This document shows, in pieces, positions 1 to 54,905 of a stretch of 64,000 nucleotides of DNA. The notes under the pieces are model-generated. The model made no database searches. It was not told the DNA's origin and worked only from the letters and a program-made list of their open reading frames with translations. Within the stretch, counting starts at the first letter, position 1. Every line of letters starts with the position of its first letter. Where the stretch lies: contig NC_090346.1 of NCBI RefSeq assembly GCF_035084215.1, positions 4,836,001-4,900,000 on the forward strand, written 5' to 3'. The position numbers were made by a program, and so were the translations under genes. Source of the stretch: Heptranchias perlo (taxonomy: Eukaryota).

Positions 1-146
1 AGAACTCCCAGATGTCTGGTGACATCTTTCACACACATGCTGACTTTATTTCATCAATGATTGAACTATGAGGAGCCTGAGTATGGTGATTGGCATGATT
101 GTTACTCTGCCAGGATTAATGCATATCGCTTTCTTTTGTCTTCCAG

Positions 147-1085
147 GGCCTTCACATGTACAAGAATCTGCGGAGATGCATGACAATTCCTCAGAGGACT
201 CCATTCCTTCTAAGGGCACAGCATCACTGTACGTACAGTGCAGATACTCACACCTCGGTGGATCCTGTTAGCCAGTTAGTTGGGTTTTCACCTGGTGATT
301 CACAATTCACAAGTGAGCACGAAGACACTGGTGGCAGGGGCAGCTGCAGAGAGTCCGCGTCGGAGGGCACATTCCTCTCCAAGCTCTGCTCAGCTGGACA
401 TAGATGCTGAACCCCGGGGAATATCGTTTAGAATGAGAATGATTGCGGTACAGCTGCAACTTTGTGAGGTGCTCGCAAACGTGCCATGCACACACTCAAC
501 AATAGCGGAGAGGAAGGAGGAGTCCAGCTCCAACAGTAGTGGATTGTTATCCCAGGTAATTGCGAGAATGTCTGCCATGGAGAGAGTGCCGCCTCCATGG
601 AGCTTCAAGCACAGGTCACAAATGAGTCTATTCAGGCCATGACCACGGTCGTGCAGGAGAGTCTGCCACCTTAAACAGGATGACAGATACCTTATCCATG
701 GCCTTACAATGCATCACTGATCTGCACCAAGCTGCTCTCCAACAGAATGGTGGGAGTGATGTGCCCAAGAGAGGGTTGATGGCGAAAGGGGACATGGAAG
801 TGGGAACTCCGCTCAAAGCGCTCCCACATCTCACCCGTTGCCCCCCACCCCCTCAACCAGTACCTGACATGCTCTCCCGATGGCCAAGTCTCCCCTGCAT
901 AGGTGCAGGTGGAGCAGTCTTTGGCAGGACCCTCATGGTCTCCAAAACCCAGAGTTTGTAGGCCAAAAGCAACTCAGCAGTCAGGGCAGGGATCTGTGCA
1001 GCCTGCCAATACCTCTGCTGAAGCCACAGGGGATGCACCACATAAAAGCGGCAGGAAGCATAAGAGAAAGCAATTGTATACACAT
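147..1085 (+). pseudogene. Frameshifted last exon of Harbinger Myb/SANT partner gene
   Basis: Acceptor ttcttttgtcttccAG at 145-146. Peptides DNSSED, LVAGAAAESPRR, MTDTLSMALQ and ATGDAPHKSGRKHK, in different frames, match the 10159-11156 exon. Confidence 0.85.
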
Positions 1086-1374
1086 GGGTGTTTGAAGAAA
1101 TGTTATGTGTGAAGTTTCCTTTTTTTATATCGGGACATAAAATTTATTGATTAGCGCCACTTCCACGTCTTGCCCATTATTGTGTCTTGAGTGCCAATTC
1201 ACCCTCTCATTTGCTTCATGATGAATGTCAATACACAATGGGACCTATTTGCAGATGTGAAATGGGTGTATGCATGGTTAATGGACTGTTTTGTGCAAAA
1301 GGTGGGGGGGTGGGGGTTGGTGGTGGTGGTGGGAGTGGGCCAGAGGATTTCAATGTTTCTTTTTCCAACTCTGA

Positions 1375-2601
1375 CTAAGTGGACCTTTGAGATATGAGGA
1401 CATCCCTGGCATCCCGGGCAGTAAGGTATACGACTGGTCTGGCGCTGGGTGACCCATCTGAATATTGCTCCTCCTCCTCCTCTCCTTCAATGTTCTCGTC
1501 ATCAGAGGATGATTGATGAGCACCTTTGTCGACCCCAATCGCTAGTCCTCTCTGCTGCGCAATGATGTGCAGGACACAGCTCACCACTACAATTCTTGAT
1601 ACCCTTGCTGGTGAGTACTGAAGGATGCCTTCAGACCTATCTAGGCACCTGATGCGCATCTTCAACATGCCGATGGCTTGCTCGATGGCACACCTGGCGG
1701 GCATGTGGCTCTGGTTGTATCACTCTTGCGCCCCATTGGTGGGGTTCCTCACAGGTGTCATGAGCCAAGTTTGAAGTGGGTATCCCTTGACTCCAACAAG
1801 CCAACCCTTAAGTCTGTCTCCTAGTAGGAAAAGGTCTGGAATGTTGAACTGCCGCAATGTAAAGGCATCATGACAACTGCCAGGGAATCTGGCACGCACC
1901 TGCATGAACCTCTTCTTGTGGTTGCACACCAGCTGTCCATTGATGGAGTGAAATCCCTTGCGGTTGCTAAAAACTCTGGTTCATGTGGTGGTCCTCGGAT
2001 TGCCACGTGTGTGCAATCGATGGCACCCTGCACCTGTGAGAAGCCAGCCAGGGAGGCAAAACCGACTGCCCGCTCATTCTGGCTATTATCGTCATAAGGG
2101 AAGTTCACATATGTTGACGCCCAGGCAAACAACCCATCCGTCACTTGCCTTATACATTTATGTGCAGGCAACTGAGAGACCCTGGAGATGTCTCCGATGG
2201 TGTACTGGAAGGAGCCAGAGGCAAAGAAATTGAGGGCAGTGGTGAGTTTTACAGCAACAGGTAATGCGTGGCCACCAGGTCCAGCAGAGGGTGGCTCTTC
2301 TTGAAGGAGGTTGCAAATGTCTGCGACTACCTGCCGGCTCAATCTAAGCCTGTGTAGGCACTCTTCTTCAGAGAGGTCCAGGAAGCTCAGCCTCTGCCTG
2401 TAGACCCTCTCACGTGGGAAGGGCCTCCTGCGACCTCAGCCCCTCTGTTGCTCTCCTCTCTGCTGTTCTCCAGATCTGAGTTATACACCTCTCTCTCGTG
2501 TACCCGCAGATCCCATCACAGCATGATGTCACTGCGATGGATGGCCATTTTCTTCCTCCTCTGATGTCCCCTCGAATACATCCAAGGCATGTATCCCCCA
2601 T
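1375..2601 (-). pseudogene. Frameshifted Harbinger DDE transposase
   Basis: Split ORFs carry [24 protein letters not shown] (catalytic D changed to V) and AIEQAIGMLKMR. Confidence 0.92.
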
Positions 2602-5600
2602 CCTGATCTTGTCAGTTTGAAAGCCTCCAAAGTTCTGAAAAAGCTGCATGAACACAAGAACTCTCTACCAAATGTTTACCAAAGGGAACTGAGACACCAG
2701 CTGTAATCACTGAGCTTTTATCCACATCAGGCAATCACAACTTTAAATACCCACATGAACTGTGGCTCAATCTTGCCTCCGTTTCACTGGCAAGATTCAC
2801 AAGCTCCGGGAAACCCATGCTGGAGGCGTTAAATTTGAAGGTCTTTTAAATTCAATTTAAACACACCTACTTAACGTCTCATAATGACGTTAATTGCTCC
2901 GATAACTACCCGCCCGCCTGCACTAATTAGGGACCTGTCCCTGGCGTGTAGGTTACTCGCACGCATCCAAACGTGCCTCCGTTAATCCCGGAGGTAGGCG
3001 TGTTAGAGCCGGGTTGCATTCCCGCTGGAAAAATCATTCATTTTAACTTCCCTCCTGCCCCCCCCCAACCCACCTGTTTTTGGGGATTAAAATTCTCGCC
3101 AATGAGCATAGAGAATGGCAGACATATACTACTGAAGAGAGAAAGAAATATAGTTGGTAAGAATGAGAAATCAAAAGACCCCGTGAATGGGATTTGCAAA
3201 GTCGAGCCTTACAATGGACAGGCAATATTTCACCCTGTTTAGTGCTACAGCAAATTTGCGATCAATTAACCCACACTGAACAGCTGTAGTAATAGGGCAG
3301 CAAATCATAGCCCAGAAGGTTTTGAAGTCTAAGCCTCAGCTTCTTTTACGAATTATCTTGCACTTGTTGCATGAGTTTGGTCATTTTGATTCAGAAATAG
3401 AAAAAATTGGTCTGACTAGGGCCACAGTGCAATTCCTATCAGCTGGTCCAGGAGTAGTATCAATGATGGGCATGGGCAAGTTTCTAACTTGGACTGTACC
3501 TTATTCTCAACTAAAAGAACTGCAAGACTAAGAAAATTCCAGTTAACATAAAACGCCAAGCATTATTTTTCATTTTGCATTAAGTCAAATCCTAATGACT
3601 TATTTTGCTACATTTTTAAAATTCATTTGCTCTTCTTGAAGATTATTTCTATGTGATTATGTTCTGCTATCACTTCACAATTATAAACACATATTTGTTC
3701 TGCAATGAACTGTCTGTTTGCAGCTCACATTAGAATGATTAATTAGGCTTTGAATCTCTGGCACGCTGAGATCTTCGGCAGATTTCTTGTGATGATAATT
3801 TTGTTTCTTTAAGTGCCACAATTTTCTGGTAGCAACTTCTCTCCATATCTGCAGATTCTCATGGTGTGAGGAGGAGGAATGTTCCTTGCAACGATGGTGT
3901 GATTATATCCGTAGTGTCTCAAACAGCGGCCAGGAGGGTTTTTTGAAACTTAAGTAATGAACTCCAAAGCTGAAACTGAGAAACAAAAAATTTATTTTAC
4001 AGTCAGTGAGGGGGCAGTCCTTTTTCCTGCGGCATAATCTGATTGTCTGGCTGTGCAGGACAAAGCAAGCTGATCTCACCTTGTTTATTTGCCCCAAGGT
4101 ATAATTTCAACTTTCACCTACAGAAACATCTTTCATTGATTATTTCAAATAATAATTCTTAGGAATAATAAGTATTAACAAGTCAACAGTAATTTTAATA
4201 TTATTGAAGTTCACATTAGCTCAGGTTTCGGCCTTCCTTTGTTGTTATGCTTGCTATAAATATTATTCGAAACAGCATAAATTTGAAACAAGAAGCTACA
4301 GTATGCACGCTCCCCCCTCTTCCAGAAGTTACTCAGCCTCTGAATATCATGCTACCCACCCTCCTTGGTTTACATCTGAACCATTTTAACTTTGAAAGGA
4401 GAGTCGTTTATTTTCCACATGTCTTTGCCCATAGATGTAAGTGACAGGCAATGAAACCGTTCTTCAGTTACTTTGCTTCTGTAATACAGTATCAGCCTGG
4501 GCAGATGGACAGCACCCCAGCTGTGTCACTCTTCCCACAAGGGAGATGGTTAATAAATGTTTTAAAATGAAAGGCATTGTCAAACAGTGTGCTTTGAATT
4601 TTGGTACTCGTTTTAATTGATGCACAAAATGAGAAAAAGAGTTAAGTGAACAATACACAGCTTCTACCAGGCATATTTTTTGCCTTAAAGCAAATACCAA
4701 TTATCGTGTAGCTGTACCTTTCTTCCATCTGCTAGGCGATCTTCAAGTCAAAAGCGACACAGCAGTCATGTTTTACAACAGTATACCTGGTGTAAAGACT
4801 GAATGGTTAGTCACAGATTTCAGAGATTAGAAAAGATATTGGAGGTTGTGCTGTTCTATAAGGTTCAAGTCCACGAAGGCCCTTTAACTCCATGAACAAT
4901 GTGAGCATTTCCTTTACTGGGCTGTGCCTAAATGAGTTCCAGACAAAACACTGTGCAGATAATGCCTGCTCAATTATGGGATTTCAGAGATCAAACCAAG
5001 AAGAAAAAGACTCTCTTCAAATAAGAGACAAAACTGACTCTCAGCCCTGCTCGCACAGAGCTCTTCCTTTCTTGACCCACAGGCCGCTGGCTTTGAGGGA
5101 GAAGAACGGACACACCCAAAGCACATTTCTATGGGCGACTACTTTTGTTTACAAGGGGTGATCCGAGAGGTTGGTTAATGGAACACAGTCTCCATCTGGT
5201 TGATTACTGATGTAATCATACATTGCAGGGTTAATCATGTAAAGCTTTTAATACTTTAGACTGTAGTTAAAGGATTTTCCATATCAAATGATTAATATCA
5301 GACTTCTCTTAAAAGAAATGCAGCCATTTAGTTTGTGTTTTTTGAGACAAGTTTTGACAGGGGCTGCCAGCAGAGTGCACCTGATGATTTTCTGTAGGTC
5401 AGATGTTATCTATTTCTCTCTCTTTCTCGTTTCTTCAAAGCGGAGAATTTTTTTTCAGTGAATACTATTTGATTGGAAAATTAGACCTGAAGCAAGTCTT
5501 CGAGTTAATATGTATCACGTTGCCCTGAGGACTGGAAAACTGTATGAGTCATAACCCACTCCATGCCAGAGTCTCTTTGACTAGTGTTAGCGGAGTTTGC

Positions 5601-7530: not shown

Positions 7531-9261
7531 TTCTGTCTATGTAATGTATTTACTGATTACAATCTGAAACCCTCCAGATTTCCATTTTTCTGCTTTTACA
7601 GGTAAAAGCTCACTGTTCGAGAAACAACAAAGGCCTAGAATGTTCCAAAAATCCTTTTTGGGTAGTTTGGGTGGACAAGGCTTAGTGAGTTACAGTGATG
7701 CCCTTGTGACACCCTGGCATCACCGAGTGGTGAGTGCAAATCAGATACTACAAAAACTTGCTTTTATTCAATTTATTGCTATTTTTATGAACAGAAAAGA
7801 AATATGGAGTTAAAATTTATGGCAATCACAGTTATCTATGTTTTATGTAAGGTTAATTAAGCTACCCCATGAATCCACAACAGAAATAAAGCACACAGAA
7901 TTTTATATTTTCAGTCACTATCTGGGCTATCCCTGTTCTTTTCTGTTTTCTGTTAAATAAAGTTTAAAAAATCTTATAGTATTAATTAAATAATGAAAAT
8001 TACAAATACTTAAATTCCATTCGATTATAATCTACCACAGATTTTGAAATTGAATTCATTGGCAACAAAGCTCGGCATATGGGTTGGGCCCCAAAAACGA
8101 TATGCCGGGCCCCCGAATTCCTCTCAATGTGCCTGGTGATGACATACTCTAGATAATAGTATGATATAACATTTAAGTTGGATCAAGGATGAAATGCATC
8201 TTGTATGTGATTTTTAATCATTGCACATTCTCTCGCTATCTCACTTTTTGAACTGAGTAGTGATGGATTTCATTGTCTGATGCAGAAACCAATATCTAGG
8301 TTGGGGATGCTGAAAGTTATGCAGTACGCCAGTATTATTACAAACTTTCATTACTTCCCCCAAAAGTTATTACTTTGTCCTGGGAACTTTATTGATTGTT
8401 CCTGTGATTTTTTTGAAATGCCCTCAAGAATTTCAAACCCAATTGTTTTGAGAGTGCCTGTGTGTTATGGAAACCTGAAGCTTCATATCACTGATATTAT
8501 TAAGCTACAATGGTACTGCATAATTGTGCAGCACTGCAGAAAAGTCTGCGTGATTATGACCAATATAATTGCATTTGTTTGTTTAGTTTCTTTGAAATAA
8601 AAGCTTGTTTTTCTTTTTTAAAAAAAATAATACAATGTAGTTAAAATGATTGTACTGCCAAACATGAAGTTTTAAATTAAAAAGAACTGTTGAAATCCCT
8701 ATTGTTTCTTGGTCACCAGCCAACAAGTGCTTGGAACTTAATAAACCACAAAGTAAGATTAGTGAGAGGTCAGTAATGGACCTATAGGAGTATTGGTACA
8801 GTAGTATCAGCACTAACTATGCACAGATCAGAAACATCACTACTCCAGAATAGCCCCGAAAATTGTGTTGTCACGAAAATGGGGATGGGGTGGAAATCTG
8901 TTAGACTGTTACAGGAAAAATTGGTTTTGAGAACATGGGGAGAGATTGCCTCTGTGCATGAGGTGTAAAGAAATTGTAAACACTTTCTTTGTAAATATAG
9001 AATGAATCTTGCACTCAAATGATCAGTCACTGGCAACATTATGGCAGACATTATGCACAGAATGTTGGGTCAGTGGGCCCGATTTTAGCAGGCATGCGGG
9101 TTCCTGGTGGGTGGTCCATCGGGAGCGTGGAAAACGCGGACGGCTAAATGAGTGCACCCCCCGCGCGATCGCCATTAAGCCGTGGTTACGGGTTCTCCGC
9201 TCCCCAGTTGCGTGCCGGCGACCTGCGCATGCGCATTGATGTTCGCGCGATGGTGGAGCTC

Positions 9262-9269
9262 TATTTAAA
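9262..9269 (+). promoter_or_regulatory. Putative TATA box of the Myb/SANT gene
   Basis: TATTTAAA about 50 bp upstream of an ATG in strong Kozak context (caccATGg, 9319), downstream of a CpG-rich subterminal region. Confidence 0.5.
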
Positions 9270-9318
9270 GGGGCAGTCCACCAAAGCCCCTCCAGCTTCA
9301 AACAAGAGGCATCACACC

Positions 9319-9558
9319 ATGGAGCACCCCAGTGGTAAGGCTGCACCACGGTTTTCGGACCTCGCGCTCCAGCTGCTGCTGGACGGTGTGAGGAGGAGGA
9401 GGGACACGCTGTTCCCAACTGACGGATGGAAGTGCCCTGGCTCCGCCACCAGGAAGGCATGGGCAGAGGTGGCGGCGGAGGTCAGCAGCAGGGCCAACAC
9501 CACCAGGACATGGGTGCAGTGTAGAAAGCGATTCAATGACCTCACTAGGTCCGGCAAA
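9319..9558 (+). CDS. Harbinger Myb/SANT-like DNA-binding protein, exon 1 (80 codons)
   Basis: MEHPSGKAAPRFSD...KAWAEVAAEVS...RTWVQCRKRFNDLTRSGK, followed by donor GTGAGT at 9559. Confidence 0.92.
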
Positions 9559-9882
9559 GTGAGTACACCAACGCACCCTCCCACAACCCGTCTCCAACAT
9601 CACGCCAAACACCTCACAACCCCTTCTGCACAGCCACCACAGCGCTCCCGCAGCAATCCTCACAGCCACTCAACTACCATCCTCACCGTGCCTGCATGTA
9701 CCCACCGTCCCTGTCCCCACTCGAACACTACCACACATCCCAATCCCCATGCAATGGGATGAGCATGTGGCACACGCATCCTCCCATCCATCTGCCCCAC
9801 GCTCAACCCACCCACACCGATGCTTGAGGCGTCTCACAATGCAATCTGCACTCACTCACGCATCTGTGTTTTGCCTTGACAG

Positions 9883-10042
9883 GAGAAGAGATGCAAGAAC
9901 GCCAGAGAAAGGGCCCGCACCGGAGGGGGCCCGCCACACCTGCTGGTACTGACGGACGCAGAGGTGGAGGCGCTGGATATCAGCCGCACGCAACATTGCC
10001 TCTCCGTGGCAGATGGCGAGGCTGGGGATGCAGAAACGGCCG
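9883..10042 (+). CDS. Harbinger Myb/SANT-like protein, exon 2
   Basis: Acceptor ttgccttgacAG (9881-9882). Phase-0 translation EKRCKNARERARTGGGPPHLLVLTDAEVEALDI contains the typical TGGG motif. Donor GTAAGG at 10043. Confidence 0.88.
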
Positions 10043-10158
10043 GTAAGGGAAAGCTGACACTCAGCACTCATGATCGCGAATGACCTTAGCATCACCTGGC
10101 ATCAGGCGCACCGTAACGTTTGTGCACATCCCTGAGATTGCCCTCTGTTCTCTTGCAG

Positions 10159-11156
10159 GGCCGTCTGCGAGCGCCGTGTCCGTTGAGGGCGATTCCTCAG
10201 AGGACATGCCGGTCTCTGAGGGTCCATCGTCACATATGAGTCAACCATCCACCAGCGCAGAGACACACGCCTCGGTGGGTCCCCCTCGCCAACTAGTTGG
10301 GGTTGCACATGGTGAGTCACCGCACACGAGTGAGCATGAGCAGACCCTGGTGGCAGGGGCAGCCGCGGAGGGTCCGCGTCGGTGGGAGCACTCTTCTCCA
10401 GGCTCTGCTCAGCCGGACCCAGATGCTGAACCCAGGGGGCCACCAGTCAAAAGGAGAGTCATCGAGAGGCACCAGCACATTGCCGAGGTACTGGGAGAGG
10501 TGCCACGCGCATTGTCCACAATCACGCAGGTGATGGAGGAGTCCAACTCCTGCATGCGGGCATTGGTGGCACAGGTACAGGAGGGTATCGGCGACATAGT
10601 GTCGCGGGTAGGTGCGGGAACGTCTGCGGTGGAGGACAGGCTAGCCTCCCTCGAGCGTCACGCACAGCTCAACATCGAGTCCATGCAGGCCCTGACAACG
10701 GCTGTTCGGATTCAGGGTGAGCAACATTCCGCCGCCATAAACAGGCTGACGGATACACTACAGGTGGCCTTGCAAGGCCTCACACATGCCATCCAAACTG
10801 TCGTCCAGCAGGGTGGAAGGGGTGATGTGGGCCGAGGCCATGAGAGGGATGATGGTGAACGGGGACATGGAAGCAGGGACGCTACTCAAGGTGCCCCCAC
10901 GTCTCACCCGTTGCCCCCCTCTCAACCAGTACCCGCAATGGTGCCTCCTCTCCAGGTGGCCGAGTCTGCCCCTGCACAGGTGCAGGAGGAGCAGTCCGTG
11001 GAGGTGCCCTCACGGGCACCGAAACCCAGGGGGCGTCGGCCCAAAGAGTCCACCCGGTCAGGGCACGAACAGGAGCAACCTGCCACTACCTCTGCTGGAG
11101 CCACAGGGGTAGCACCACGTAGGGGTTCCCGTAAACGTAAGCCAACGGTCTTATAA
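10159..11156 (+). CDS. Harbinger Myb/SANT-like protein, exon 3 (predicted helical/coiled-coil region, basic C-terminus)
   Basis: Acceptor tctcttgcAG (10157-10158). A phase-1 join keeps the frame of ORF 10080-11156, which ends RRGSRKRKPTVL*. Spliced CDS is 1398 nt, 465 aa. Confidence 0.88.
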
Positions 11157-11486
11157 GCACAAAGGGAATGCACCAGGGTGTCTGTCCATTTGTAATGTTT
11201 TTGTTTATAGTTATTCACTAAGTACATAGTAAACACAATCGTTCTCAACACTCCTGCCACCTCTCGTCCATTCTTCTGCGGCTTGTGCAATAGGTCCCTT
11301 CCGTGCGGGCCATCATGTCGACGAACACCTGGTCCCGCCCATTGGGCACACTACAGTGGGTGCAGGAGTACTGGCACCACTCTTCTGTGGAGGGGGCTGG
11401 TATGGCCCCTCGTCTGTGCAAGTGAGGAGATGTGAACGCCTCAGACTGTCTGATCCTAGGAGAACCGTTGACATATGAGTGCCTCC

Positions 11487-12638
11487 CTAGCCTGGCGAGC
11501 ATCCCGGTGAGCCGGTGTTCGCGTCCTCCTCCTCATCGTCGTCCTCAATGTGGGTGGCGGGTGTGGATGGGGCCTCCTCCAGTGGCACCCCTCTCTGTTG
11601 GGCCATGTTGTGCAGGGCACAGCAGACAACTATAATTCGTCCCACTCTGAATGGCGTGTATTGGAGCGCTCCCCCAGAACGATCAAGGCACCTGAAGCGC
11701 ATCTTGAGCAGCCCTATGGCCTGCTCAATTGCAGACCTGGTAGCAATGTGGCTGTCATTGTATCGACACTGCGGCTCGGTGATGGGGTTCCTCAGAGGTG
11801 TCATAAGCCACGTGTGCAGGGGATATCCCTTGTCGCCGAGGAGCCAGCCGTTGCCGGTGTTGGGTGCGTGGAAATGGGGCGGGACGGTGGACTCCCTGAG
11901 GACGAAGGCATCGTGGCAGCTGCCGGGGTATCTGGCGCACACGTGTAGGAATCTCTGGCGGTGGTCACAGATGAGCTGGGCGTTCATGGAGTGATACCCC
12001 TTCCTGTTGATGAACAGCCCTGGCTCATGTGGAGGTGCCTGTATTGCTATGTGGGTGCAGTCGATTACACCCTGCACCCATGGGAAGCCAGCCACAGCAT
12101 GGAAACCAACCGCCCTCTCCATCTGGCTGCGCTCGTCCATGGCGAAGTTGATGTAGTGCGAGGCCCTGTGGAACAACCTATCAGTGACCTGCCTTATGCA
12201 CTTGTGTGCAGAGGACTGACAGACCCCGGTGATGTCCCCGCTGGTACCCTGGAAGGATCCGGAGGCGAAGAAGTTGAGGGCAGTGGTGACTTTGACGGCG
12301 ACGGGTAAGAAGATGCTGCTTGGTCCATCCGGGAGCAGCTCGTCATTAAGGAGGCTGCAGATGTCGGCGACTACCTGGCGAGTGACTCTGAGCCTCCGTA
12401 TGCACTGCTCCTCGGAGAGGTCTATGAAGCTGAGCCTCGGTCTGTAGACCCTGTGCGGAGGGTAGTGCCTCCTGCGACGCATCTCTCTCTGTGGTTGCCC
12501 TCCCTCCTGCTGTGCAGGTGGGTGTGCCGCAGCACCGTGTTGGGGGGCTCCACGTCTCTGAGGCGGACGGCGTGGACTGCGAGGCTGCTGGGGCTGGTGA
12601 TGCTGTTCGTCCTCCGAGGATGTCGAGGCGGCCCCCAT
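11487..12638 (-). CDS. PIF/Harbinger (HARBI1-like, DDE_Tnp_4-type) transposase
   Basis: Open frame with [27 protein letters not shown] and AIEQAIGLLKMRFRCL. Likely start is MGAAS at 12638, directly after an acceptor-like ctgccAG. The C-terminal tail is probably frameshifted. Confidence 0.93.
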   Translation of the reverse strand: MGAASTSSEDEQHHQPQQPRSPRRPPQRRGAPQHGAAAHPPAQQEGGQPQREMRRRRHYPPHRVYRPRLSFIDLSEEQCIRRLRVTRQVVADICSLLNDELLPDGPSSIFLPVAVKVTTALNFFASGSFQGTSGDITGVCQSSAHKCIRQVTDRLFHRASHYINFAMDERSQMERAVGFHAVAGFPWVQGVIDCTHIAIQAPPHEPGLFINRKGYHSMNAQLICDHRQRFLHVCARYPGSCHDAFVLRESTVPPHFHAPNTGNGWLLGDKGYPLHTWLMTPLRNPITEPQCRYNDSHIATRSAIEQAIGLLKMRFRCLDRSGGALQYTPFRVGRIIVVCCALHNMAQQRGVPLEEAPSTPATHIEDDDEEEDANTGSPGCSPG

Positions 12639-13574
12639 CTGGCAGGTGTAGGTCTGAGGGGTTGTGCACGGTAGGTAGGTGTTTCCTCGCACTGGGGCTG
12701 CGGTTCCACGTCGGTGTTTCTTCTGGCTTGGAGGGGGGTGGTGGAGGGCAGGCGTTGCCCTATGTGACGGAGTGGCCTCCTGCGTTGGTGAAGGGTCTCC
12801 CCCCACCACCCTCCCCCCCTGTGGAGTGCACCTTGGCAGCTGCCACAGGCTGCTGGCTGCAACACATCCGTTTGGAGTGAGACTGTTTCCCCCAGTCTCA
12901 GGTGCAGGTAAAATCCCACACTTCCTAATAAGACAGCTGAATCAGGTCATTTAATAACCTGAAATAGCTAGATAAATATTGTCAAGTGGCATCCCGCTGG
13001 CTTTAATTGTCTGCGGGATTCCCACCAGCGGGGGCTTCGCACGCACCCCCGCACGTCAGCGCGAAACCCGGAAGTGGGCGGGATCGAGGCGGGATCCGGT
13101 CCCGCTCCGGGTTTTCGCGATTTTCGGGGCCCCCCCGCCGGGAACGCACCCGATAGTGGGTGCTAAAATTGGGCCCAGTGTGTCTTAACTTCAATCTGAA
13201 ATCAATGGCTATCATAATCTACTAGATGACTGGCATGTTGGTTACATCTCTTTGATATTATAGAGAGTAGTTTCTGATAGCAGGCCAGCCTCAAATCCAC
13301 TTCTCTGCATAGCTCTGTGCTGTACTGAGTTCAGGAGCAGGTTTTCTCTGAAGTCTGTCAAAGAGCGGTAAAATACTCTATCGCTAGCCAGGTACATTAT
13401 AGACTTAATAGAACACTGAAGTCTCTAATGGTGAGAAGTTGGGTCAGACTTTCCCACTCTTCAACCTGCTTTTCCAAGCACCTTATCCACGTTTTGTCCA
13501 ATATTTAGACACAATTAACAAGCTATGGAGCTGAATGTTTGTAACCGAAGAGAGTTTGAAAGCCTTATAAAGTG

Positions 13575-13803
13575 GGGTACAGGGTTCACCAATGTCCTTT
13601 AGCGAAGGAAACCCGCTATCTTTATCAGGTCTAGCCTATATGTGACTCCAGTCCCTCACCAACATGGCTGACTTTTAACTGCCCTCTGAAGTGGCCTAGC
13701 AAGCTACTCAGTTGTATCACCACCCTCTCAGGGAAACTAGGGATAAGCAATAAATGCCGGCCTTACCAGCAACACCCACATCCCGAGAATTAGTAATAAA
13801 AAG
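13575..13803 (+). mobile_element. 3' part of a second SINE family
   Basis: GGTTCACCAATGTCCTTTAG...GTGACTCCAG...GCAATAAATGCCGGCCTTACCAGCAACACCCACATCCC plus an A-rich tail resembles repeats I recall from elasmobranch sequence. Family name not verified. Confidence 0.6.
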
Positions 13804-16974: not shown

Positions 16975-18669
16975 GGGGGAAGAATTGGATAAGGCCTGTT
17001 TTTGGGTGGGGGTAGCACGATCTGCTATTACCCCGTGCCCAATGGCGCCTGCGCAGGCAGGACGAGACTTTCGTCAGGCCTGAGGACTTACCTGCAATCT
17101 ACATTGGAAATCAGCGTTGAATTAGGATTCCATGCAATTTGCAGTTTCCCCCAGCAGGGGGAGCTCCACTCTCTTAAAGGCAGACAGTCTCTTAAAAATT
17201 TCTTAAAGGTAGCTGGTACCTGTTATTTGCTGAAAATAACAGTCTGCTGTCTGCACAGAGTCTGAACAGAGACCAGACATCACACACATAAAGCACAGAT
17301 GCAGCTCCCGTCCCTATGTTTACAAACTGATGAGATATGTTAAAACATTGAATAAAGGTTGCACACTACTAAATCCCACATCCTCCAATCTGCATGCCAG
17401 ACCTCACCAAACTGCCGATCTGAGTTTGTACCAGGTCTGCGAGGAATGCGTGCACCAAGGTTCTCTGCTGATCCACGAGAGGCCTTGGTGCAAGAGATGG
17501 ACGGAAGGAGGGACATCCTACATCCGTTGGGGGGGGGGGGGGGGGGGGCGCGCAAGAGGCCCTCCAGACAAATACCCAAAAGGCAGTGGGAGGCAGCGGG
17601 GGACGAAGTCAATGCCGGGCACACAGCAAAAGTGAACATGGATGCAGTGCAGGAAGAGGTTCAATGTTTTGACTTGAGTGATCAAGCTGAGGTCAACTGT
17701 CAAGTTGCATCTCCTACCAACTGCACCACTAACCGCATCCACTGCTCCTCGCACTACACCCCCATCACCCATATAACAACAGACTGTTTCCATCCGTTCT
17801 CAACTCTTCCAATCAGATGCTTCCTCTCACCCTCACACATTACCACTGTTGCAAACTGCCCACCCACAACTCATAGGCCAGAAACACTGGCAGCTATTCA
17901 ACCATAACAGGCACATCACCCAGACACACATCCTGCTTTCTTGCAGGAGAAGGTGGCGCATATCAGGAGGCAGCAAGGGGCAGTGGCATTTAGCCCCTCA
18001 AGCGTGTTCCGCCATTCAGTGAGATCATGGCAGATCCATATACCTGCCTTAGCCCCATATCCCTTAATACCATTGGTTCCCAGAAATATATCAATCTCAG
18101 ATTTAGAACTCACAATTGAGTTAGCATCAACTACTTTTTGCAGAAGAGCGTTCCAAACTTCTCCCATCCTTTGCATGTAGAAGCTTTTCCTAACTTCACT
18201 CCTGCACGTCCTAGCTCTAAATGTTAGGCTATGTCCCCTAGTCATTGTATTCAAGTGTAGGAGACCTCCAAAAACAGTTACAAATATCTCGACAGCCAGA
18301 AGCAATAATCCAGCCACTAACCCGTAAATCCTGCATGGTCCCTTTAAATAGTGCTGGTGGGAGTCCTCCAGGCACTCTAAGACATGTTCAGATGGTCGGG
18401 GGTAAGAATGTGTGTTGAGTTGAGTGTTAAGTCCCAAAATGTTGTCTATCACTTTAAATCAGCATTGCACACTGATTGTATCTATTTTCTCCTTACTTTA
18501 CACGCTTCCAGTGTTCGTTATCTGCACCTGCGCTAACTCCTATACCAAGATGGCGTCCAGTGCACGTCATGCTGGAAACGTGCATGCGCAGCCAAGACAC
18601 CATCTTGGCACTTTGGGAGGCCGCGTAGCGCCAAAACAACCCGGCGCTACATGGCCCAATTTAGCGCCC
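16975..18669 (+). mobile_element. Non-autonomous Harbinger deletion derivative retaining Myb exon 1 and the start of exon 2
   Basis: RAPRFSADPREALVQEMDGRRDIL...QWEAAGDEVNA, then ttcttgcAG|EKVAHIRR. Termini GGGGGAAGAATTGG and CCAATTTAGCGCCC (10/14 inverted match), flanked by GAA on both sides. Confidence 0.78.
17981..18245 (-). mobile_element. CR1 3' fragment nested in the Harbinger derivative
   Basis: TRGHSL...SEVRKSFYMQRMGEVWNAL...EIDIFL plus a CR1 3' UTR similar to 26890-27180. Confidence 0.85.
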
Positions 18670-26889: not shown

Positions 26890-28570
26890 CATAGGAACAT
26901 AGGAACAGGAGTAGGCCATTCAGCCCCTCGTGCCTGCTCTGCCATTTGATAAGATCATGGCTGATCTGTGATCTAACTCCATATACCTGCCTTTGGCCCA
27001 TATCCCTTAATACCTTTGATTGCCAAAAAGCTATCTATCTCAAATTTAAATTTAGCAATTGAGCAAGTATCAATTGCCGTTTGCGGAAGAGTTCCAAACT
27101 TCTACCGCCCTTTGTGTGTCGAAATGTTTTCTAATCTCACTCCTGAAAGGTCTGGCTCTAATTTTTAGACTTTGCCCCCTACTCCTAGAATCCCCAACCA
27201 GCGGAAATAGTTTCTCTCTATCCACCCTATCCGTTCCCCTTAATATCTTATAAACTTCGATCAGATCACCCCTTAACCTTCAAAACTCCAGAGAATACAA
27301 CTCCAATATGTGCAATCTCTGCTCGTAACTTAACCCTTGAAGTCCGGGTATCATTATTGTAAACCTACACTGCACTCCCTCCAAGGCCAATATGTCTTCC
27401 CAAAGGTGCGGTGCCCAGAACTGCTCACAGTACTCCAGGTGCAGTCCAACCAGGGTTTTGTATAGCTGCAGCATAACTTCTGCCCCCGTGTACTCTAGAT
27501 ATAAAGGCCAGCATTCCATTAGCCTTATTGATTATTTTCTGCACCTGTTCATGACACTTCAATGATCTATGTACCTGTACCCCTAAGTCCCTTTGGACAT
27601 CCACTGTTTTTAACTTTTTACCATTTAGAAAGTACCCTGTTCTAACCTTTTTTGATCCAAAGTAGATGACCTCACATTTGTCTACATTGAATTCTATTTG
27701 CCACAGTTTTGCCCATTCACCTAATTTGTAATTTTATGTTTTCATCTACACTGCTTACAATGCCACCAATCTTTGTGTCATCGGCAAACTTAGATATCAG
27801 ACTTTCTATGCCTTCATCGTTAATAAATATTGTGAATAATTGAGACCCCAAGACAGATCCCTGCGGGACTCCACTAGTCACATCCTGCCAATGTGAGTAC
27901 CTACCCATTATCCCTACTCTCTGTCGCCTTTCGCTCAGCCAATTTCCTAACCAAGTCCGTACTTTTCCCTCGAGTCCATGGGCTTCTATCTTAGCTAACA
28001 GTCTCTTATGTGGGACCTTATCAAATGCCTTCTGGAAGTCCATATAAATAACAGCCATTGACATTCCCCTGTCCACTACTTTAGTCACCTCTTCAAAAAA
28101 TTCAATCAGGTTTGTCAGGCACGACCTACCTTTCACAAATCCATACTGGCTCTCTCAGATTGAACACCTCGAGAATTTTCAGTTAGTCACCCTATCCTTA
28201 ATTATAGACTCCAGCATTTTCCCCACAACAGGTGTTAGGCTAACTGGTTTATAATTCCCTGGTTTCCCTCTCTCTCCTTTCTTAAAAAGCGGAATGACAT
28301 GTGCAATTTTCCAATCCAGAGGGACAGTTCCTGAATCTAGAGAACTTTGAAAGATTATAGTAAGGGCATCTGCAATGTGCTCACCTACTTCCTTTAAAAC
28401 CCTGGGATGGAAACCATCTGGTCCTGGGGATTTGTCACTCTTTAGTGCTATTATTTTCTTCATTACTGTTGCTTTACTTATGTTAATTTTATCGAGTCCC
28501 TGTCCCCGATTCAATATTAGTTTTCTTGGGATTTCCGGCATGCTATCCTCTTTTTCTACTGTAAATACTG
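26890..28570 (-). mobile_element. 5'-truncated CR1 LINE (second subfamily)
   Basis: KSPGPDGFHPRVLKE, GRSCLTNLIEFFEEV, GVPQGSVLG, KFADDTK; (TTCCTATG)n tail at ~26890; frameshifts and deletions. Confidence 0.95.
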
Positions 28571-29689
28571 ACTCAGTCAGCATGAGGCTATTGCACTCCT
28601 GTGCCATAAGCTGCAAGGACACCTCCAGCCAATTTTCACCATAAGGACACCACTGCCAAAAGCAGGCAGGGTCACCACCACCCACAACTTTTGCTTCTGC
28701 CTCTTTTCAGGCTAGCGTGGGGATCATCTACAATAGCAGCCAATGCGCTGACCACATGTAAATCAAACAAGCAACTGATGCATTGGTCAGTTGGGCCAGC
28801 ACTTTTAACTTTCCCAATGTCATTGTACAGTTGTATTTCCCAAAGTAGATCGATCATTGATGGCAGCTATCTAGCAATCCTAGCTGGCAGGTTCCAACAT
28901 CTCCTCTGCCACCACCATTTGTTCCTGCTCACATATGCATTGTGACTCAGCCTTTGCTACCTCCTGAAGTTTGCTAACTGTATCATCTGGGATATGTGTT
29001 GTGCTGGAATACAGGGTACTTTAAGATGTTCTCTTGTCCTGGGCTATTACCACTGCTAGCTGGCTCCTGTTTCAGGCCCACCATATTAACTGTTGCAAGA
29101 CAAATCTTCCAGCAGAGCTCACATTGCAAGATACAAATTGTGTGTGATGTATGTCTGTATGGGAGTGAGTGAGAAAGGGAATCAGACATAAGAACTAGAT
29201 GGTATTAGTCCTGAGCTTTGGGCAAGAGCCTCCAGCTTCACCTTTCCCTACACCTTCTATGCTTTTAAATACAATGTCTTGCTTCCTCGAAGGTAGTGTA
29301 AGGCACAATTTCTGGGCCCCCTCCTTCAATTCCAATACATTGCCTTCTATTCAATGTCATATAAGCATAGAAGTTGTCTTCTGCTGTTGTAAATGGAAGG
29401 AGCATGTGCACAGTGATAGACACTTGCCCAACCTGCAGGCCATACTATGTAACAGTAAGTGACCATGCAGCTAAGTCGTGTTACAATGCTTTTACATGTG
29501 AAGCCCTTCAAAGATGCGAGTATGCCAAATGTTTCAGCTGAATGTGTACCCTGATGGAATCTGGGTTTGCATAATCAATAAAGTTGTGCGATCATTTGGC
29601 ATGGCAGATGTAAGTGAGCCACTAGTTGACAGGCAACATTTTGTGGCCTGCATACTTGGACCATATACCTGGTATTGTTGAGTAGTCTT

Positions 29690-33744: not shown

Positions 33745-36135
33745 GGAGACTTTAACTTTCCCAACATTGACTGGGACAGCCATAGCATTAGGGGCTTGGA
33801 TGGAGAGAAATTTGTTGAGTGTATTCAGGAGGAATTTCTCATTCAGTATGTGGATGGCCCGACTAGAGAGGGGGCAAAACTTGACCTCCTCTTGGGAAAT
33901 AAGGAAGGGCAGGTGACAGAAGTGTTGGTGAGGGATCACTTTGGGACAAGTGATCATAATTCCATTAGTTTTAAGATAGCTATGGAGAAGGATAGGTCTG
34001 GCCCAAAAGTTAAAATTCTAAATTGGGGAAAGGCCAATTTTGATGGTATTAGACAGGAACTTTCAGAAGTTGATTGGGAGAGTCTGTTGGCAGGCAAAGG
34101 GACGTCTGGTAAGTGGGAGGCTTTCAAAAGTGTGTTAACCAGGGTTCAGGGTAAGCACATTCCTTATAAAGTGAAGGGCAAGGCTGGTAGAAGTAGGGAA
34201 CCTTGGATGACTCGGGAGATTGAGCAACTAGTCAAAAAGAAGAAGGAGGCATATGACATGCATAGGCAGCTGGGATCAAGTGGATCCCTTGAAGAGTATA
34301 GAGATTGCCGGAGTAGAGTTAAGAGAGAAATCAGGAGGGCAAAAAGGGGATATGAGATTGCTTTGGCAGATCAGGCAAAGGTGAATCCAAAGAGCTTCTA
34401 CAAATACATAAAGGGCAAAAGGGTAACTAGGGAGAGAGTAGGGCCTCTTAAGGATCAACAAGGTCATCTATGTGCGGAACCACAAGAAATGGGGGAGATC
34501 CTGAATGAATATTTCACATCGGTATTTACGGTTGAGAAAGGCATGGATGTTAGGGAACTTGGGGAAATAAATAGTGATGTCTTGAGGAGTGTACATATTA
34601 CAGAGAGGGAGGTGCTGGAAGTCTTAACGCGCATCAAGGTAGATAAATCTCCGGGACCTGATTAAATGTATCCCAGGACGTTATGGGAGGTTAGGGAGGA
34701 AATTGCGGGTCCCCTAGCAGAGATATTTGAATCATCCACCGCTACAGGTGAGGTGCCTGAAGATTGGAGGGTAGCAAATGTTGTGCCTTTGTTTAAGAAG
34801 GGCGGCAGGGAAAAGCCTGGGAACTACAGACCAGTGAGCCTGACATCTGTAGTGGGTAAGTTGTTAGAGGGTATTCTGAGGGACAGGATCTACAGGCATT
34901 TGGAGAGGCAGGGACTAATTAGGAACAGTCAGCATGGTTTTGTGAGAGAAAAATCATGTCTCACGAATTTGATTGAGTTTTTTGAAGGGGTAACCAAGAA
35001 GATAGATGAGGGCTGTGCAGTAGACGTGGTCTACATGGACTTCAGCAAAGCATTTGACAAGGTACCGCATGGTAGGTTGTTACATAAGGTTAAATCTCAT
35101 GGGATCCAAGGTGAGGTAGCCAATTGGATACAAAATTGGCTTGACGACAGAAGACAGAGGGTGGTTGTAGAGGGTTGTTTTTCAAACTGGATGCCTGTGT
35201 CCAGCGGTGTGCCTCAGGGATCGGTGCTGGGTCCGCTGTTATTTGTTATTTATATTAATGATTTGGATGAGAATTTAGGAGGCATGGTTAGTAAGTTTGC
35301 AGATGACACCAAGATTGGTGGCATTGTGGACAGTGAAGAAGGTTATCTGGGATTGCAACGGGATCTTGATCAATTGGGCCAGTGGGCCGATGAATGGCAG
35401 ATGGAGTTTAATTTAGATAAATGTGAGGTGATGCATTTTGGTAGATCGAATCGGGCCAGGACCTACTCTGTTAATGGTAGGGCGTTGGGGAGAGTTATAG
35501 AACAAAGAGATCTAGGAGTACAGATTCATAGCTCCTTGAAAGTGGAGTCACAGGTGGATAGGGTGGTGAAGAAGGCATTCGGCATGCTTGGTTTCATTGG
35601 TCAGAACATTGAATGCAGGAGTTGGGATGTCTTGTTGAAGTTGTACAGGGCATTGGTGAGGCCACACTTGGAGTACTGTGTACAGTTCTGGTCACCCTAT
35701 TATAGAAAGGATATTATTAAACTAGAAAGAGTGCAGAAAAGATTTACTAGGATGCTACCGGGACTTGATGGTTTGACTTACAGGGAGAGGTTAGACAGAC
35801 TGGGACTTTTTTCCCTGGAGAGTAGGAGGTTAAGGGGTGATCTTATAGAAGTCTATAAAATAATGAGGGGCATAGATAAGGTCGATAGTCAAAATCTTTT
35901 CCCAAAGGTAGGGGAGTCTATAACGAGGGGGCATAGATTTAAGGTGAGAGGGGAGAGATACAAAAGGGTCCAGAGGGGCAATTTTTTCACTCAAAGGGTG
36001 GTGAGTGTCTGGAACAAGCTGCCAGAGGCAGTAGTAGAGGCGGGTACAATTTTGTCTTTTAAAAAGCATTTGGACAGTTACATGGGTAAGATGGGTATAG
36101 AGGGATATGGGCCAAGTGCAGGCAATTGGGACTAG
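33745..36135 (+). pseudogene. CR1 ORF2 (reverse transcriptase), 5'-truncated, one nonsense codon
   Basis: ORFs 33796-34665 and 34666-36135 are contiguous in frame (KSPGPD*MYPR). RT motifs QHGF, DFSKAFDKV, GVPQGSVLGP, FADD. Confidence 0.95.
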
Positions 36136-37778: not shown

Positions 37779-37969
37779 CTGTTTGGCGATTGTTGCGCGG
37801 TGTCCGTTCATCCGTTGTCGCAGTGTCTGCATGGTCTCGCCAATGTACCTCATACATTGTCTACCTCATACGTTGCAGGAAAGGATGCCCCAGAGCATGG
37901 TACATTGGCGAGACCATGCAGACACTGCGACAACGGATGAACGGACACCGCGCAACAATCGCCAAACAG
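37779..37969. repeat. Perfect 71 bp inverted repeat with 49 bp spacer
   Basis: 37779-37849 is the exact reverse complement of 37899-37969. Confidence 0.96.
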
Positions 37970-51329: not shown

Positions 51330-51700
51330 AGGAGGGAAGGAGCCAGAGGTAAAAAAGTTCACAGCAGTAGTGACCATGATTGCAACAGGCAATGCTGTGC
51401 TAATTGCAGCAGTTGGTTGCAGGTTTTCTTGCAGGATGCACAACTCTGTCACAGCCTCCCTAGAGAATCGCAACCTAGTTCTGCACTGCTCCTCAGAGAA
51501 TTGCAAGTATGTTCTGGGCCTATAAAACGCTATTGAGAAGTTGAAGATTCTTCAGAGCATGCCCCTCTTCTATTTGCTGTCCCACCAGCTGTAGCTCTGC
51601 TTGCTCCTTCCTCCTTCCTCCTTTTCCTGTTGCTCCCTCTCTTCCCAGAGTATGAATCTTAGAAGGACCCCCATCAAGAACAACTGCAGTGCCAGAAGCT
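51330..51700 (-). pseudogene. Decayed Harbinger transposase N-terminal part
   Basis: QFSEEQCRTRLRFSREAVTELC...LPVAIMVTTAVNFFTSGSF matches DLSEEQCIRRLRVTRQ...LPVAVKVTTALNFFASGSF. Confidence 0.85.
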
Positions 51701-53811: not shown

Positions 53812-54905
53812 ACTGAGCACTTGAACAAGTATGAACTGCTAATAAAGAGTCAGCATGGATTTGTGAAGAGTAGGTCATATCTGACTACTCTAGTTAAATA
53901 TTTTGAAGAGGTCACTAGAATAGTGGATAGGGGAACGTCAATGAATGTTGTCTATATGTAGTTCCGGAAAGCATCGGATAAGATTCCGCACAATAGATTA
54001 TTAGCAGAAAATGAAAGTGCACGGAATTGGAAGTAACGTTGCAAACATGGGTTGGCAATTGATTGGGATGTAGGAGACGGAGAGCAGAAATAAAGGGAAC
54101 TTTCCCTGATTGGCAGGGTGTGACAAGTGGTGTTCCCCAGAGGTCTGTACTGGGTCCTCAGCTTTTCACCATATATATTATTGACTTGAATGAAGGAATA
54201 GAGTTGTAGAACCAAGTTTGCAGATGTCACTAAGTTAGGAGGCACAGTAAGTTATGTAGATGGGAGCAGCAAATTACAAAGGGACATGAACAGACTAAAT
54301 GAGTCGGCAAAACAATGGAAGATAGAATTCAATGCGGGGAAATGCAAGGTCATATCCTTCAGATCCACAGATCAATAAAAGCTAGTACACAGGTACAAAA
54401 AAAAAAGCACCGAACTTCAGGAAAGATATGTTGCCCTTAGAGGGGGTGCAGTTCAGAGTCACTATAATTTAACCCTATAAGCCTGATATTATGATGACAA
54501 GAGTACAAACCAAGTTCATCCAGCCTTTGAGTTTAGAAGATTATGGGGTGTTCTAATCGAGGTCTTTAAAATGATAAAGGGATTAGATAGCATAGATACA
54601 AAGACACTATTTCCTCTGGTGGGAGAATCCAGAACAAGGGAGAGCTAGGTCATTCAGGAGTGAAATGAGGAAACACTTTTTTCACACAAAGGGTAGTGGA
54701 AATCTGAAACACTCTCCCCCAAATGACTGTGGATGCTGGGTCAATTGAAATTTTCAAGACTAAGATTGATAGATGTGTGTTAGGTAAGGGCATCAAGGGA
54801 CATAGAACAAAAGGTGGGTAAATGGAGTTAAGTTACAGATTAGCCTTGATCTTATAAATGGTGGAACAGGCTCAAGGAACTGAATGGCCTACTCCTGTTC
54901 CTATA
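53812..54905 (+). mobile_element. Decayed CR1 LINE (RT to 3' UTR)
   Basis: AGTCAGCATGGATTTGTG, GTGGTGTTCCCCAGAGGTCTGTACTGGG, AAGTTTGCAGATG; 3' end TGAATGGCCTACTCCTGTTCCTAT. Confidence 0.9.

What the first reader, a model, noticed from the sequence alone, without database searches (positions are those of the whole stretch)
9075..13176. Near-intact two-gene PIF/Harbinger transposon: candidate recently active vertebrate element
Seen: TIRs match at 15/16, a flanking duplication is present, the DDE triad motifs (IDCTH, LGDKGY, IEQAIG) are intact, the partner gene is uninterrupted with canonical splice sites, and CpGs are retained at both ends. Known: Harbinger transposition needs a transposase plus a Myb/SANT partner, and the vertebrate genes HARBI1 and NAIF1 derive from such pairs. 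Inference: this copy is young, and a family consensus could be a functional two-component transposon. I cannot tell whether the family is already catalogued.
Basis: partly seen in the sequence, partly recalled or inferred. Interest (0 to 1): 0.75.

Follow-up and report, generated by a model that had tools for sequence, protein, structure and literature searches.

The report
Decayed two-gene shark Harbinger transposon
This is a full-length two-gene Harbinger cut-and-paste transposon, likely from a shark, whose transposase gene is frameshifted before its conserved last helix, so this copy is likely an immobile relic of an abundant family of a known kind, although a sister subfamily may have moved recently.

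Summary
The anatomy is real: a 4,102-bp element (9075-13176) with 15/16 TIRs, an AGT duplication (also readable as CAGTG), a three-exon Myb/SANT partner gene (465 aa, open) and a convergent DDE transposase. A contig from a probable RNA run splices both predicted introns in a related copy. Closest named proteins are from the shark Heptranchias perlo.

'Near-intact and young' does not hold for this copy. The transposase shifts frame near 11520 and loses a C-terminal helix conserved in relatives. It also lacks four N-terminal residues and has changes at conserved positions. The copy is roughly 1.5-3% from the family pool, and no empty site was shown. Read depth suggests a very abundant, diverged family, held under a second organism label too.

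The architecture and the C|NNN|G target are known (NuwaII/SENKUSHA1), and a reconstructed vertebrate Harbinger (Harbinger3_DR) is already reported active.

Two leads remain. Partner proteins 99.4-100% identical on at least three large H. perlo contigs point to a young sister subfamily. Two related transposase clades conserved across shark orders, each without the third catalytic Glu, look like domesticated genes not found in my literature searches. Verdict: new member of a known kind, modest interest.

The parts
9072..9074 (.). Left target-site duplication AGT (5-bp reading: CAGTG, 9071-9075)
9075..9090 (+). Left TIR (16 bp)
   Evidence: junction crossed by one X1 contig with 0 differences at depth 43.6
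9091..9318 (+). CpG-rich left subterminal region, presumed partner promoter/5'UTR (inferred)
   Evidence: CpG o/e 0.95 over 9075-9324
9319..9558 (+). Partner gene exon 1, Myb/SANT domain
   Evidence: PF13873 E 4.8e-9; GT donor
9883..10042 (+). Partner gene exon 2
   Evidence: X7 contig 26 skips 324 nt at intron 1
10159..11156 (+). Partner gene exon 3 (long low-complexity and probably helical tail), stop at 11154-11156
   Evidence: X7 joint at 10043 continues with exon-3 letters (table 5c); 85-92% identity to H. perlo proteins
11456..11515 (-). Out-of-frame remnant of the conserved transposase C-terminal helix and the family-type stop
   Evidence: the equivalent helix has pLDDT 95-96 in the P0003 model
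11515..11522 (-). Approximate frameshift site, about five codons shorter than relative P0028
   Evidence: X10 record 13 stops fitting at 11521; not listed as an indel table 4
11487..12638 (-). DDE transposase reading frame, 383 aa; D193 at 12060-12062, D269 at 11832-11834, E305 at 11724-11726
   Evidence: PF13359 E 6.2e-37
12639..13160 (-). Right subterminal region, presumed transposase promoter/5'UTR, CpG-rich near the end (inferred)
   Evidence: CpG o/e 1.08 over 12997-13176
13161..13176 (-). Right TIR (16 bp)
   Evidence: junction crossed by one X1 contig with 2 differences at depth 42.2
13177..13179 (.). Right target-site duplication AGT (5-bp reading: CAGTG, 13176-13180)

Best explanation
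This is a full-length copy of a two-gene PIF/Harbinger DNA transposon, likely of the Nuwa (Harbinger3_DR/SENKUSHA-like) branch and likely from a shark, and this copy is likely dead because its transposase frame shifts before the conserved last helix. How the family would work, by analogy with Harbinger3_DR and plant PIF/Pong (established knowledge, not tested here): the Myb/SANT partner binds the CpG-rich subterminal DNA and brings in the DDE transposase. The transposase cuts at the GGGCCC ends and inserts into a palindromic C-ANT-G site, duplicating 3 (or 5) bp. This copy inserted long ago and has since decayed, by roughly 1.5-3% (inferred). It can at most supply a partner protein or be moved in trans through its intact ends. 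A sister subfamily in H. perlo appears much younger (inferred from proteins only).
For: Anatomy. Host: the best transposase hits by E-value are elasmobranch 'putative nuclease HARBI1' proteins, top identity 78% in H. perlo; all 8 partner hits are H. perlo. Defect: the family tail lies out of frame. A loosely defined tail motif is found in 34 of 44 relatives, and the helix is confidently modelled in P0003 (pLDDT 95-96). The N-terminus is 4 aa shorter than P0002 and than loose ends in X1 (85 records), X5 (10) and X7 (5). Ten positions differ from a >=70% consensus of 21 relatives; P0002 has the consensus residue at 6 of the 10. Age: in X1, 7,142 of 75,110 laid records are >=99% alike and 49,740 are under 95%. 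At 12 of the 40 difference rows shown (of 740), >=98% of X1 depth carries another letter. 31-mer sharing gives about 2.1% (X1) to 3.3% (X5) distance from the pool. The partner protein has an end branch of 0.036 and best identity of 88-91% to annotated copies. Organism B (X5) shows a similar identity spectrum (477/1005/1884/1043 of 4,409). Sharks mutate slowly: 7e-10 per bp per generation in the epaulette shark (PMC10587355).
Against: The partner gene is fully open over 465 codons, the DDE triad is intact, the ends keep their CpGs and the TSD is perfect, so the copy is not ancient. The frameshift is not listed as an indel table 4. Logan contigs drop rare variants, so I could not show whether it is private, shared by a subfamily, or an assembly error. 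The remaining 383-aa frame keeps the whole catalytic core, and the need for the last helix is inferred from conservation, not tested. Divergence estimates from contigs are rough, and X1 may be the source sample. Only 15 of 79 joints were displayed, so an empty-site joint could be among the hidden rows. Placement in the Nuwa branch rests on TIR, TSD and Pfam features; no labelled reference transposases were in the tree.
Confidence: 0.8

Rival explanations
1. This copy, or its own subfamily, is young and still mobile. The frameshift is an assembly error or harmless.
For: Perfect TSD, 15/16 TIR, open partner gene, intact triad, CpG-rich ends. The indel is not confirmed by reads (table 4).
Against: Private letters at 12 of 40 rows shown; only 9.5% of laid X1 records are >=99% alike; no annotated protein is over 92% identical; a second shortening at the N-terminus; single contigs cross both junctions at flank depth.
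Confidence: 0.08
2. This copy is dead, but the wider family still has an active master: a sister subfamily is transcribed, spliced and recently dispersed. This adds to the best explanation rather than excluding it.
For: P0124, P0139 and P0140 are 99.4-100% identical over the exon-3 region where other copies are 80-91% alike. They lie on different large contigs (112.5, 76.1 and 66.5 Mb; P0139 is on 2 contigs). The spliced X7 contig begins exon 3 like P0123 (PSASASCE).
Against: These annotated proteins lack the Myb exon, so they may be non-autonomous derivatives or segmental duplicates. No transposase of this family with triad, full length and tail was among the hits examined; P0001, a more distant relative, has triad and tail but a 5-aa gap. 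The window copy is only about 85% identical to them. X7 being RNA is the tool's guess. The window's species is not established.
Confidence: 0.4
3. The locus is a domesticated host gene pair (HARBI1/NAIF1-like), not a transposon copy.
For: The partner gene is open and spliced in a relative; conserved, probably domesticated relatives exist in other sharks.
Against: TIRs and TSD are present; interior read depth is 1.9e5-3.2e6 against 42-53 in the flanks; a second decayed relative lies in the same window; the transposase is frameshifted.
Confidence: 0.03

Closest known systems
NuwaII group of PHIS elements, including SENKUSHA1 (NuwaII_TRub, C|NNN|G) and turtle Harbinger-x_CPB (Han et al. 2015, PMC4482050)
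   Same: DDE_Tnp_4 transposase plus Myb/SANT ORF, about 4-5 kb, GG-starting TIRs of 13-46 bp, the same 3-bp versus 5-bp TSD ambiguity with flanking C and G.
   Different: The core here is AGT, not TNA, and matches only the C|NNN|G member. The partner is longer (465 aa against 154-395 in table S7) and hits Myb_DNA-bind_5. No shark family is in that survey, which states PHIS is absent from sharks.
NuwaI group: zebrafish Harbinger3_DR (reconstructed, reported active; Sinzelle et al. 2008, seen only through review PMC3016246 and citing passages)
   Same: Two ORFs, GGG-starting TIR, 4.2 kb, Myb_DNA-bind_5 partner.
   Different: TSD is CWG there and AGT here; partner is 221 aa there and 465 aa here; this copy is defective.
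Coelacanth LatiHarb1 Harbinger elements (PMC3787270)
   Same: Abundant Harbinger families in a slowly evolving fish genome (9.3% of the coelacanth genome).
   Different: Different lineage; sequence relationship not tested.
Heptranchias perlo RefSeq models XP_067858713.1 ('putative nuclease HARBI1', P0002) and XP_067827223.1 ('myb-related transcription factor, partner of profilin-like', P0122)
   Same: Same family: 78% and 86-88% identical; P0122 has the same 465-aa length.
   Different: Annotated as host genes, not as parts of a transposon; P0002 is itself frameshifted.
Pangu group (ANT TSD)
   Same: AGT fits ANT.
   Different: In the paper's Results and the table rows seen, Pangu ORF2 has no known motif (its Discussion says otherwise); Pangu forms a separate clade near IS5 and lists no vertebrate host.

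Membership tests
PIF/Harbinger (PHIS) superfamily | DDE_Tnp_4 transposase with D, D, E triad | tested here: met
PIF/Harbinger (PHIS) superfamily | Second ORF with Myb/SANT domain | tested here: met
   PF13873 E 4.8e-9, above the gathering cut-off
PIF/Harbinger (PHIS) superfamily | Short TIRs starting with G and a 3-bp TSD | tested here: met
PIF/Harbinger group sensu Han et al. | TWA target-site duplication | tested here: not met
   AGT; one locus only
NuwaI (Harbinger3_DR type) | CWG target-site duplication | tested here: not met
   No symmetric placement of the ends gives CAG or CTG on both sides
NuwaI (Harbinger3_DR type) | TIR starts GGG; Myb_DNA-bind_5 partner | tested here: met
NuwaII | Target C|NNN|G (3-bp core in C...G, 3/5-bp ambiguity) | tested here: met
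   C-AGT-G on both sides; the right end of the second element at about 3100 reads CC-AAT-G: one full locus plus one end
NuwaII | TNA core, as in most members | tested here: not met
   Core is AGT; SENKUSHA1 is listed as C|NNN|G and two cichlid families as C|CWG|G type
Nuwa clade | Transposase groups with NuwaI/II in a DDE tree | not testable with these tools
   No labelled reference transposases were available; the tree holds only database hits
Pangu | ANT TSD | tested here: met
Pangu | Second ORF without a known motif (paper's Results) | tested here: not met
   Myb/SANT domain present
Potentially active autonomous element (two intact ORFs) | Intact transposase ORF | tested here: not met
   C-terminal frameshift and N-terminal shortening
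Potentially active autonomous element (two intact ORFs) | Intact, spliced partner ORF | tested here: met
   Open in this copy; splicing seen in a related copy only
Recently active element | Polymorphic empty site or near-identical copies of this copy | tested here: inconclusive
   No empty-site joint among 15 of 79 joints shown; few >=99% records; one individual of organism A only
Catalogued Repbase/Dfam family | Match to a named consensus | not testable with these tools

The most novel reading that the evidence does not exclude
Sharks carry a large, undescribed Harbinger lineage with a C|ANT|G target and a long three-exon partner. One subfamily is still or very recently mobile in a sevengill shark. 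The same lineage has been domesticated at least twice in elasmobranchs into conserved transposase genes without the third catalytic Glu: the P0003/P0005 clade in 7 species, 63-66% identical to this element, and the P0018/P0019 clade in 5 sharks and a sawfish. Living transposon and tamed gene could then be compared side by side.
Probability: 0.3. Interest if true: 0.62.

Novelty: new member of a known kind. Interest (0 to 1): 0.33.

Why it matters
Two surveys that sampled only the elephant shark reported Harbinger/PHIS as absent from sharks or lost in cartilaginous fish, and one asked for other species to be checked (PMC4482050; PMC9179366). Later genome papers list the superfamily in the whale shark and grey reef shark repeat tables; in the passages I saw they describe no element. 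This locus gives a complete structural example with a splice-supported gene model and a candidate target site. It shows that some RefSeq 'HARBI1' and 'Myb' gene models in H. perlo are transposon copies. It also illustrates that 'looks intact' can mislead in slowly mutating genomes. If the young sister subfamily has an intact transposase, it would add a naturally recent vertebrate two-component transposon with a different target. If the conserved shark clades are domesticated genes, they would add transposase domestications beyond HARBI1.

Tried and rejected
No whole genome is held, so copy number, full-length copy divergence and a TSD logo could not be computed. The TIR pattern gave 0 hits in viral contigs and 2 in prokaryote genomes; L053 matches only 21 bases and L054 gave no BLASTN hit, so both were taken as chance. 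The transposase alignment found no relative in viral contigs. It found 52 metagenome loci at 28-57% identity; a TIR search on 31 of the 52 gave no convincing TIR with TSD around the transposase. A window-wide scan for other intact ends gave only old, ambiguous cases. No RNA holder was on record; X7 is RNA only by the tool's guess. PDB sequence searches gave 0 hits. Foldseek with the P0003 model gave only weak DDE transposase/integrase matches (best E 9e-4, TM under 0.35 by query length). The model of the window transposase was low confidence (pLDDT 54) and was not used. The careful tree did not finish; the quick tree is cited. I first thought the ANT-type target might be new for this branch; I dropped that after seeing C|NNN|G listed for SENKUSHA1. 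Reading the TSD as CAG (CWG) with a longer TIR fails on the right side, which gives GTG. Earlier scan findings: none. Literature searches with no hit: Heptranchias + Harbinger and Harbinger + 'ANT TSD'. 'Sevengill' + genome + transposable elements gave only a globin paper. The search on Harbinger domestication in cartilaginous fish and passages of PMC9392472 showed no shark-specific transposase gene. Supplements of the shark genome papers (repeat tables) were not read and may name this family.
Full report
OBSERVATION. The element spans 9075-13176. The ends match at 15 of 16 and AGT lies on both sides. Because the base before the left AGT is C and the base after the right AGT is G, the same sequence also reads as a 5-bp CAGTG duplication with ends 9076/13175. 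GC rises from 0.36 to about 0.60 inside. This is the only TIR-plus-TSD pair of that quality spanning 1-8 kb in the window; 20 block shuffles gave 4 such pairs in total. The boundary is therefore best supported by the coincidence with the genes and with the depth step. CpG o/e is 0.95 and 1.08 at the two ends and 0.58 in the middle.

GENES. On the plus strand, exons 9319-9558, 9883-10042 and 10159-11156 join with GT-AG sites into an open 465-aa frame (other open combinations exist, but this one matches relatives). Exon 1 hits Myb_DNA-bind_5. P0122 from Heptranchias perlo has the same length and 398 of 465 identical residues. One contig in run X7 (RNA by the tool's guess, same sample as X1) skips 324 nt at intron 1 and jumps from 10043 into exon-3 letters. 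No DNA run shows these joints among the rows displayed. The contig differs from this copy at 41 of about 264 letters, so it comes from another subfamily. On the minus strand, a 383-aa frame (12638-11487) hits DDE_Tnp_4 and has D193, D269 and E305.

Near 11520 the transposase changes frame. The tail ...ARQAREALICQRFS* lies in the next frame and about five codons are missing relative to P0028. A loosely defined version of this tail motif occurs in 34 of 44 relatives, and the helix is modelled at pLDDT 95-96 in P0003. That it is required for activity is an inference. The N-terminus is four residues shorter than in P0002 and than loose ends at 12624 in three runs. Ten residues differ from a >=70% consensus of 21 relatives, among them R200Q (codon CAG, consistent with CpG decay); P0002 has the consensus residue at 6 of the 10. 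Against this reading: table 4 lists no indel at 11520, though X10 record 13 stops fitting at 11521; Logan contigs drop rare variants.

FAMILY SIZE AND AGE. X1 has single contigs across both junctions (0 and 2 differences, depth 43.6 and 42.2). Summed depth inside the element is 1.9e5-3.2e6. The tool warns this is no copy number; I read it only as 'very abundant'. Of 75,110 laid X1 records, 7,142 are >=99% alike, 18,228 are 95-99%, 33,493 are 90-95% and 16,247 are under 90%. At 12 of the 40 difference rows shown (of 740), >=98% of X1 depth has another letter; at 10130 the remainder (52) is near single-copy depth. Shared 31-mers imply about 2-3% distance from the pool (rough). The partner's end branch of 0.036 implies somewhat less, and 23 of 345 scored columns differ from the majority of five other copies. 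Organism B (X5) holds the family with a similar spectrum, and organism C (X10) holds it at low depth. At the epaulette-shark rate of 7e-10 per generation (CI 1.4-14.1e-10; PMC10587355 passages), 2-3% would be tens of millions of generations. CpG decay and species differences shrink this, but 'millions of generations' is the safe reading. No empty-site joint is among the 15 joints shown (64 hidden), and only one individual of organism A was laid, possibly the source sample.

In H. perlo, partner proteins P0124, P0139 and P0140 are 99.4-100% identical in a region where other copies are 80-91% alike. They sit on different large contigs (112.5, 76.1 and 66.5 Mb, P0139 on two), and P0141 is 95% identical on another. 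This suggests recent dispersal of a sister subfamily, about 85% identical to the window copy. Their models lack the Myb exon, segmental duplication is not excluded, and no intact transposase of the family was among the hits examined.

HOST AND SURROUNDINGS. The best transposase hits are shark and ray proteins (280 hits, 120 listed); the partner has 8 hits, all H. perlo. The window's species is not established. The window is repeat-rich. A second, more decayed two-gene relative (about 70% identical, same orientation) runs from the window start to about 3100, and there are at least four older transposase fragments. A Pfam scan of 54 of the 77 long ORFs outside the element found only LINE reverse-transcriptase and endonuclease domains (4 of 54).

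COMPARISON WITH KNOWN SYSTEMS. Han et al. (PMC4482050; parts 1-3 of 4 of the text, a search of supplement 1 and its part 3) split PHIS by TSD. This element fails TWA and CWG. It fits ANT but has the Myb ORF that Pangu lacks in their Results. It fits best the NuwaII pattern C|NNN|G (SENKUSHA1), on one locus plus one end. Clade membership could not be tested with labelled references. A reconstructed Harbinger3_DR is reported active in vertebrate cells (review PMC3016246, passages; the primary paper was not held). Han et al. and PMC9179366 (passages) report absence from sharks on the basis of the elephant shark. PMC8455134 and PMC12498223 (passages) list PIF-Harbinger in shark repeat annotations. 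PMC3787270 (passages) reports a large Harbinger load in the coelacanth. My searches found no description of this family, but Repbase, Dfam and most subscription journals were out of reach.

SIDE FINDING. In the quick tree (69 rows), seven 398-408-aa proteins from Carcharodon, two Scyliorhinus, Chiloscyllium, Hemiscyllium, Rhincodon and Stegostoma form a short-branched clade (support 100). It splits into carpet sharks versus the rest, is 87-99% identical within and 63-66% identical to this transposase, and has K or R in place of E305. A second clade (Pristis, S. canicula, Chiloscyllium, Stegostoma, plus Carcharodon and Hemiscyllium by cluster) is 85-92% identical within for the four rows compared and also lacks that Glu. 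A third spans four rays. These look like lineage-specific domesticated transposase genes. Since the first two clades share species, at most one can be the HARBI1 orthologue. Synteny and dN/dS were not testable. PMC9392472 (passages) reports Myb-derived MSANTD genes, NAIF1 and HARBI1, and the passages seen name no shark-specific transposase gene.

VERDICT. A real, well-preserved but likely non-functional copy of an abundant shark Harbinger family: a new member of a known kind, interest 0.33. The young sister subfamily and the candidate domesticated genes are the parts worth following.

Noticed in passing
window 1-3100: Second, more decayed two-gene Harbinger (about 70% identical, same orientation, stops and frameshifts, cut by the window start). 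Its right end reads ...TAAAATTCTCGCC then AATG, again ANT-G.
   Followed up: partly
proteins P0003, P0129-P0131, P0005, P0132-P0134: Clade of 398-408-aa Harbinger transposase-like proteins, 87-99% identical across seven galeomorph sharks, third catalytic Glu replaced: candidate shark-domesticated gene, 63-66% identical to this element.
   Followed up: partly
proteins P0018, P0019, P0033, P0058, P0156-P0158; P0017, P0025, P0159, P0160: Second conserved clade across sharks and a sawfish, and a third across four rays: further candidate domestications.
   Followed up: partly
proteins P0124, P0139, P0140, P0141 (H. perlo): Near-identical partner proteins on different large contigs: candidate recently mobile sister subfamily or non-autonomous derivative.
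   Followed up: partly
protein P0128 (H. perlo): An annotated CDK2-like isoform ends in the C-terminal part of this family's partner exon 3 (78% over 32% of the query): possible exonisation, or an annotation artefact.
   Followed up: no
proteins P0072, P0077, P0088, P0099, P0101: Turtle and bird HARBI1-like clade (support 100); P0072 has altered first and third catalytic positions. Possibly another domesticated Harbinger transposase.
   Followed up: no
window 47898-48007: A MITE of about 110 bp (GGGGTAGAATTT ends) sits inside an old transposase pseudogene (47571-48253), flanked by ATG/CTG, consistent with a CWG-type (NuwaI-like) insertion.
   Followed up: partly
window 17440-17950; 28650-28812; 51324-51524; 60073-60162: Further old Harbinger fragments: a Myb exon-1-like piece, with a probable downstream acceptor and next exon, and three transposase pieces.
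   Followed up: no
window 37779-37969 and 54883-55234: Long inverted duplications (84% and 69% by BLASTN; the first has a near-perfect arm of about 70 bp), apparently in or beside retroelement ends.
   Followed up: no
window 27720-28154, 33745-36132, 38488-39246: LINE remnants with reverse-transcriptase and endonuclease Pfam hits; 34666-36132 is a 489-aa open frame.
   Followed up: no
window 13560-13800: Another high-depth repeat (likely a SINE or LINE tail) just right of the element, covered in runs X1, X5 and X7.
   Followed up: no
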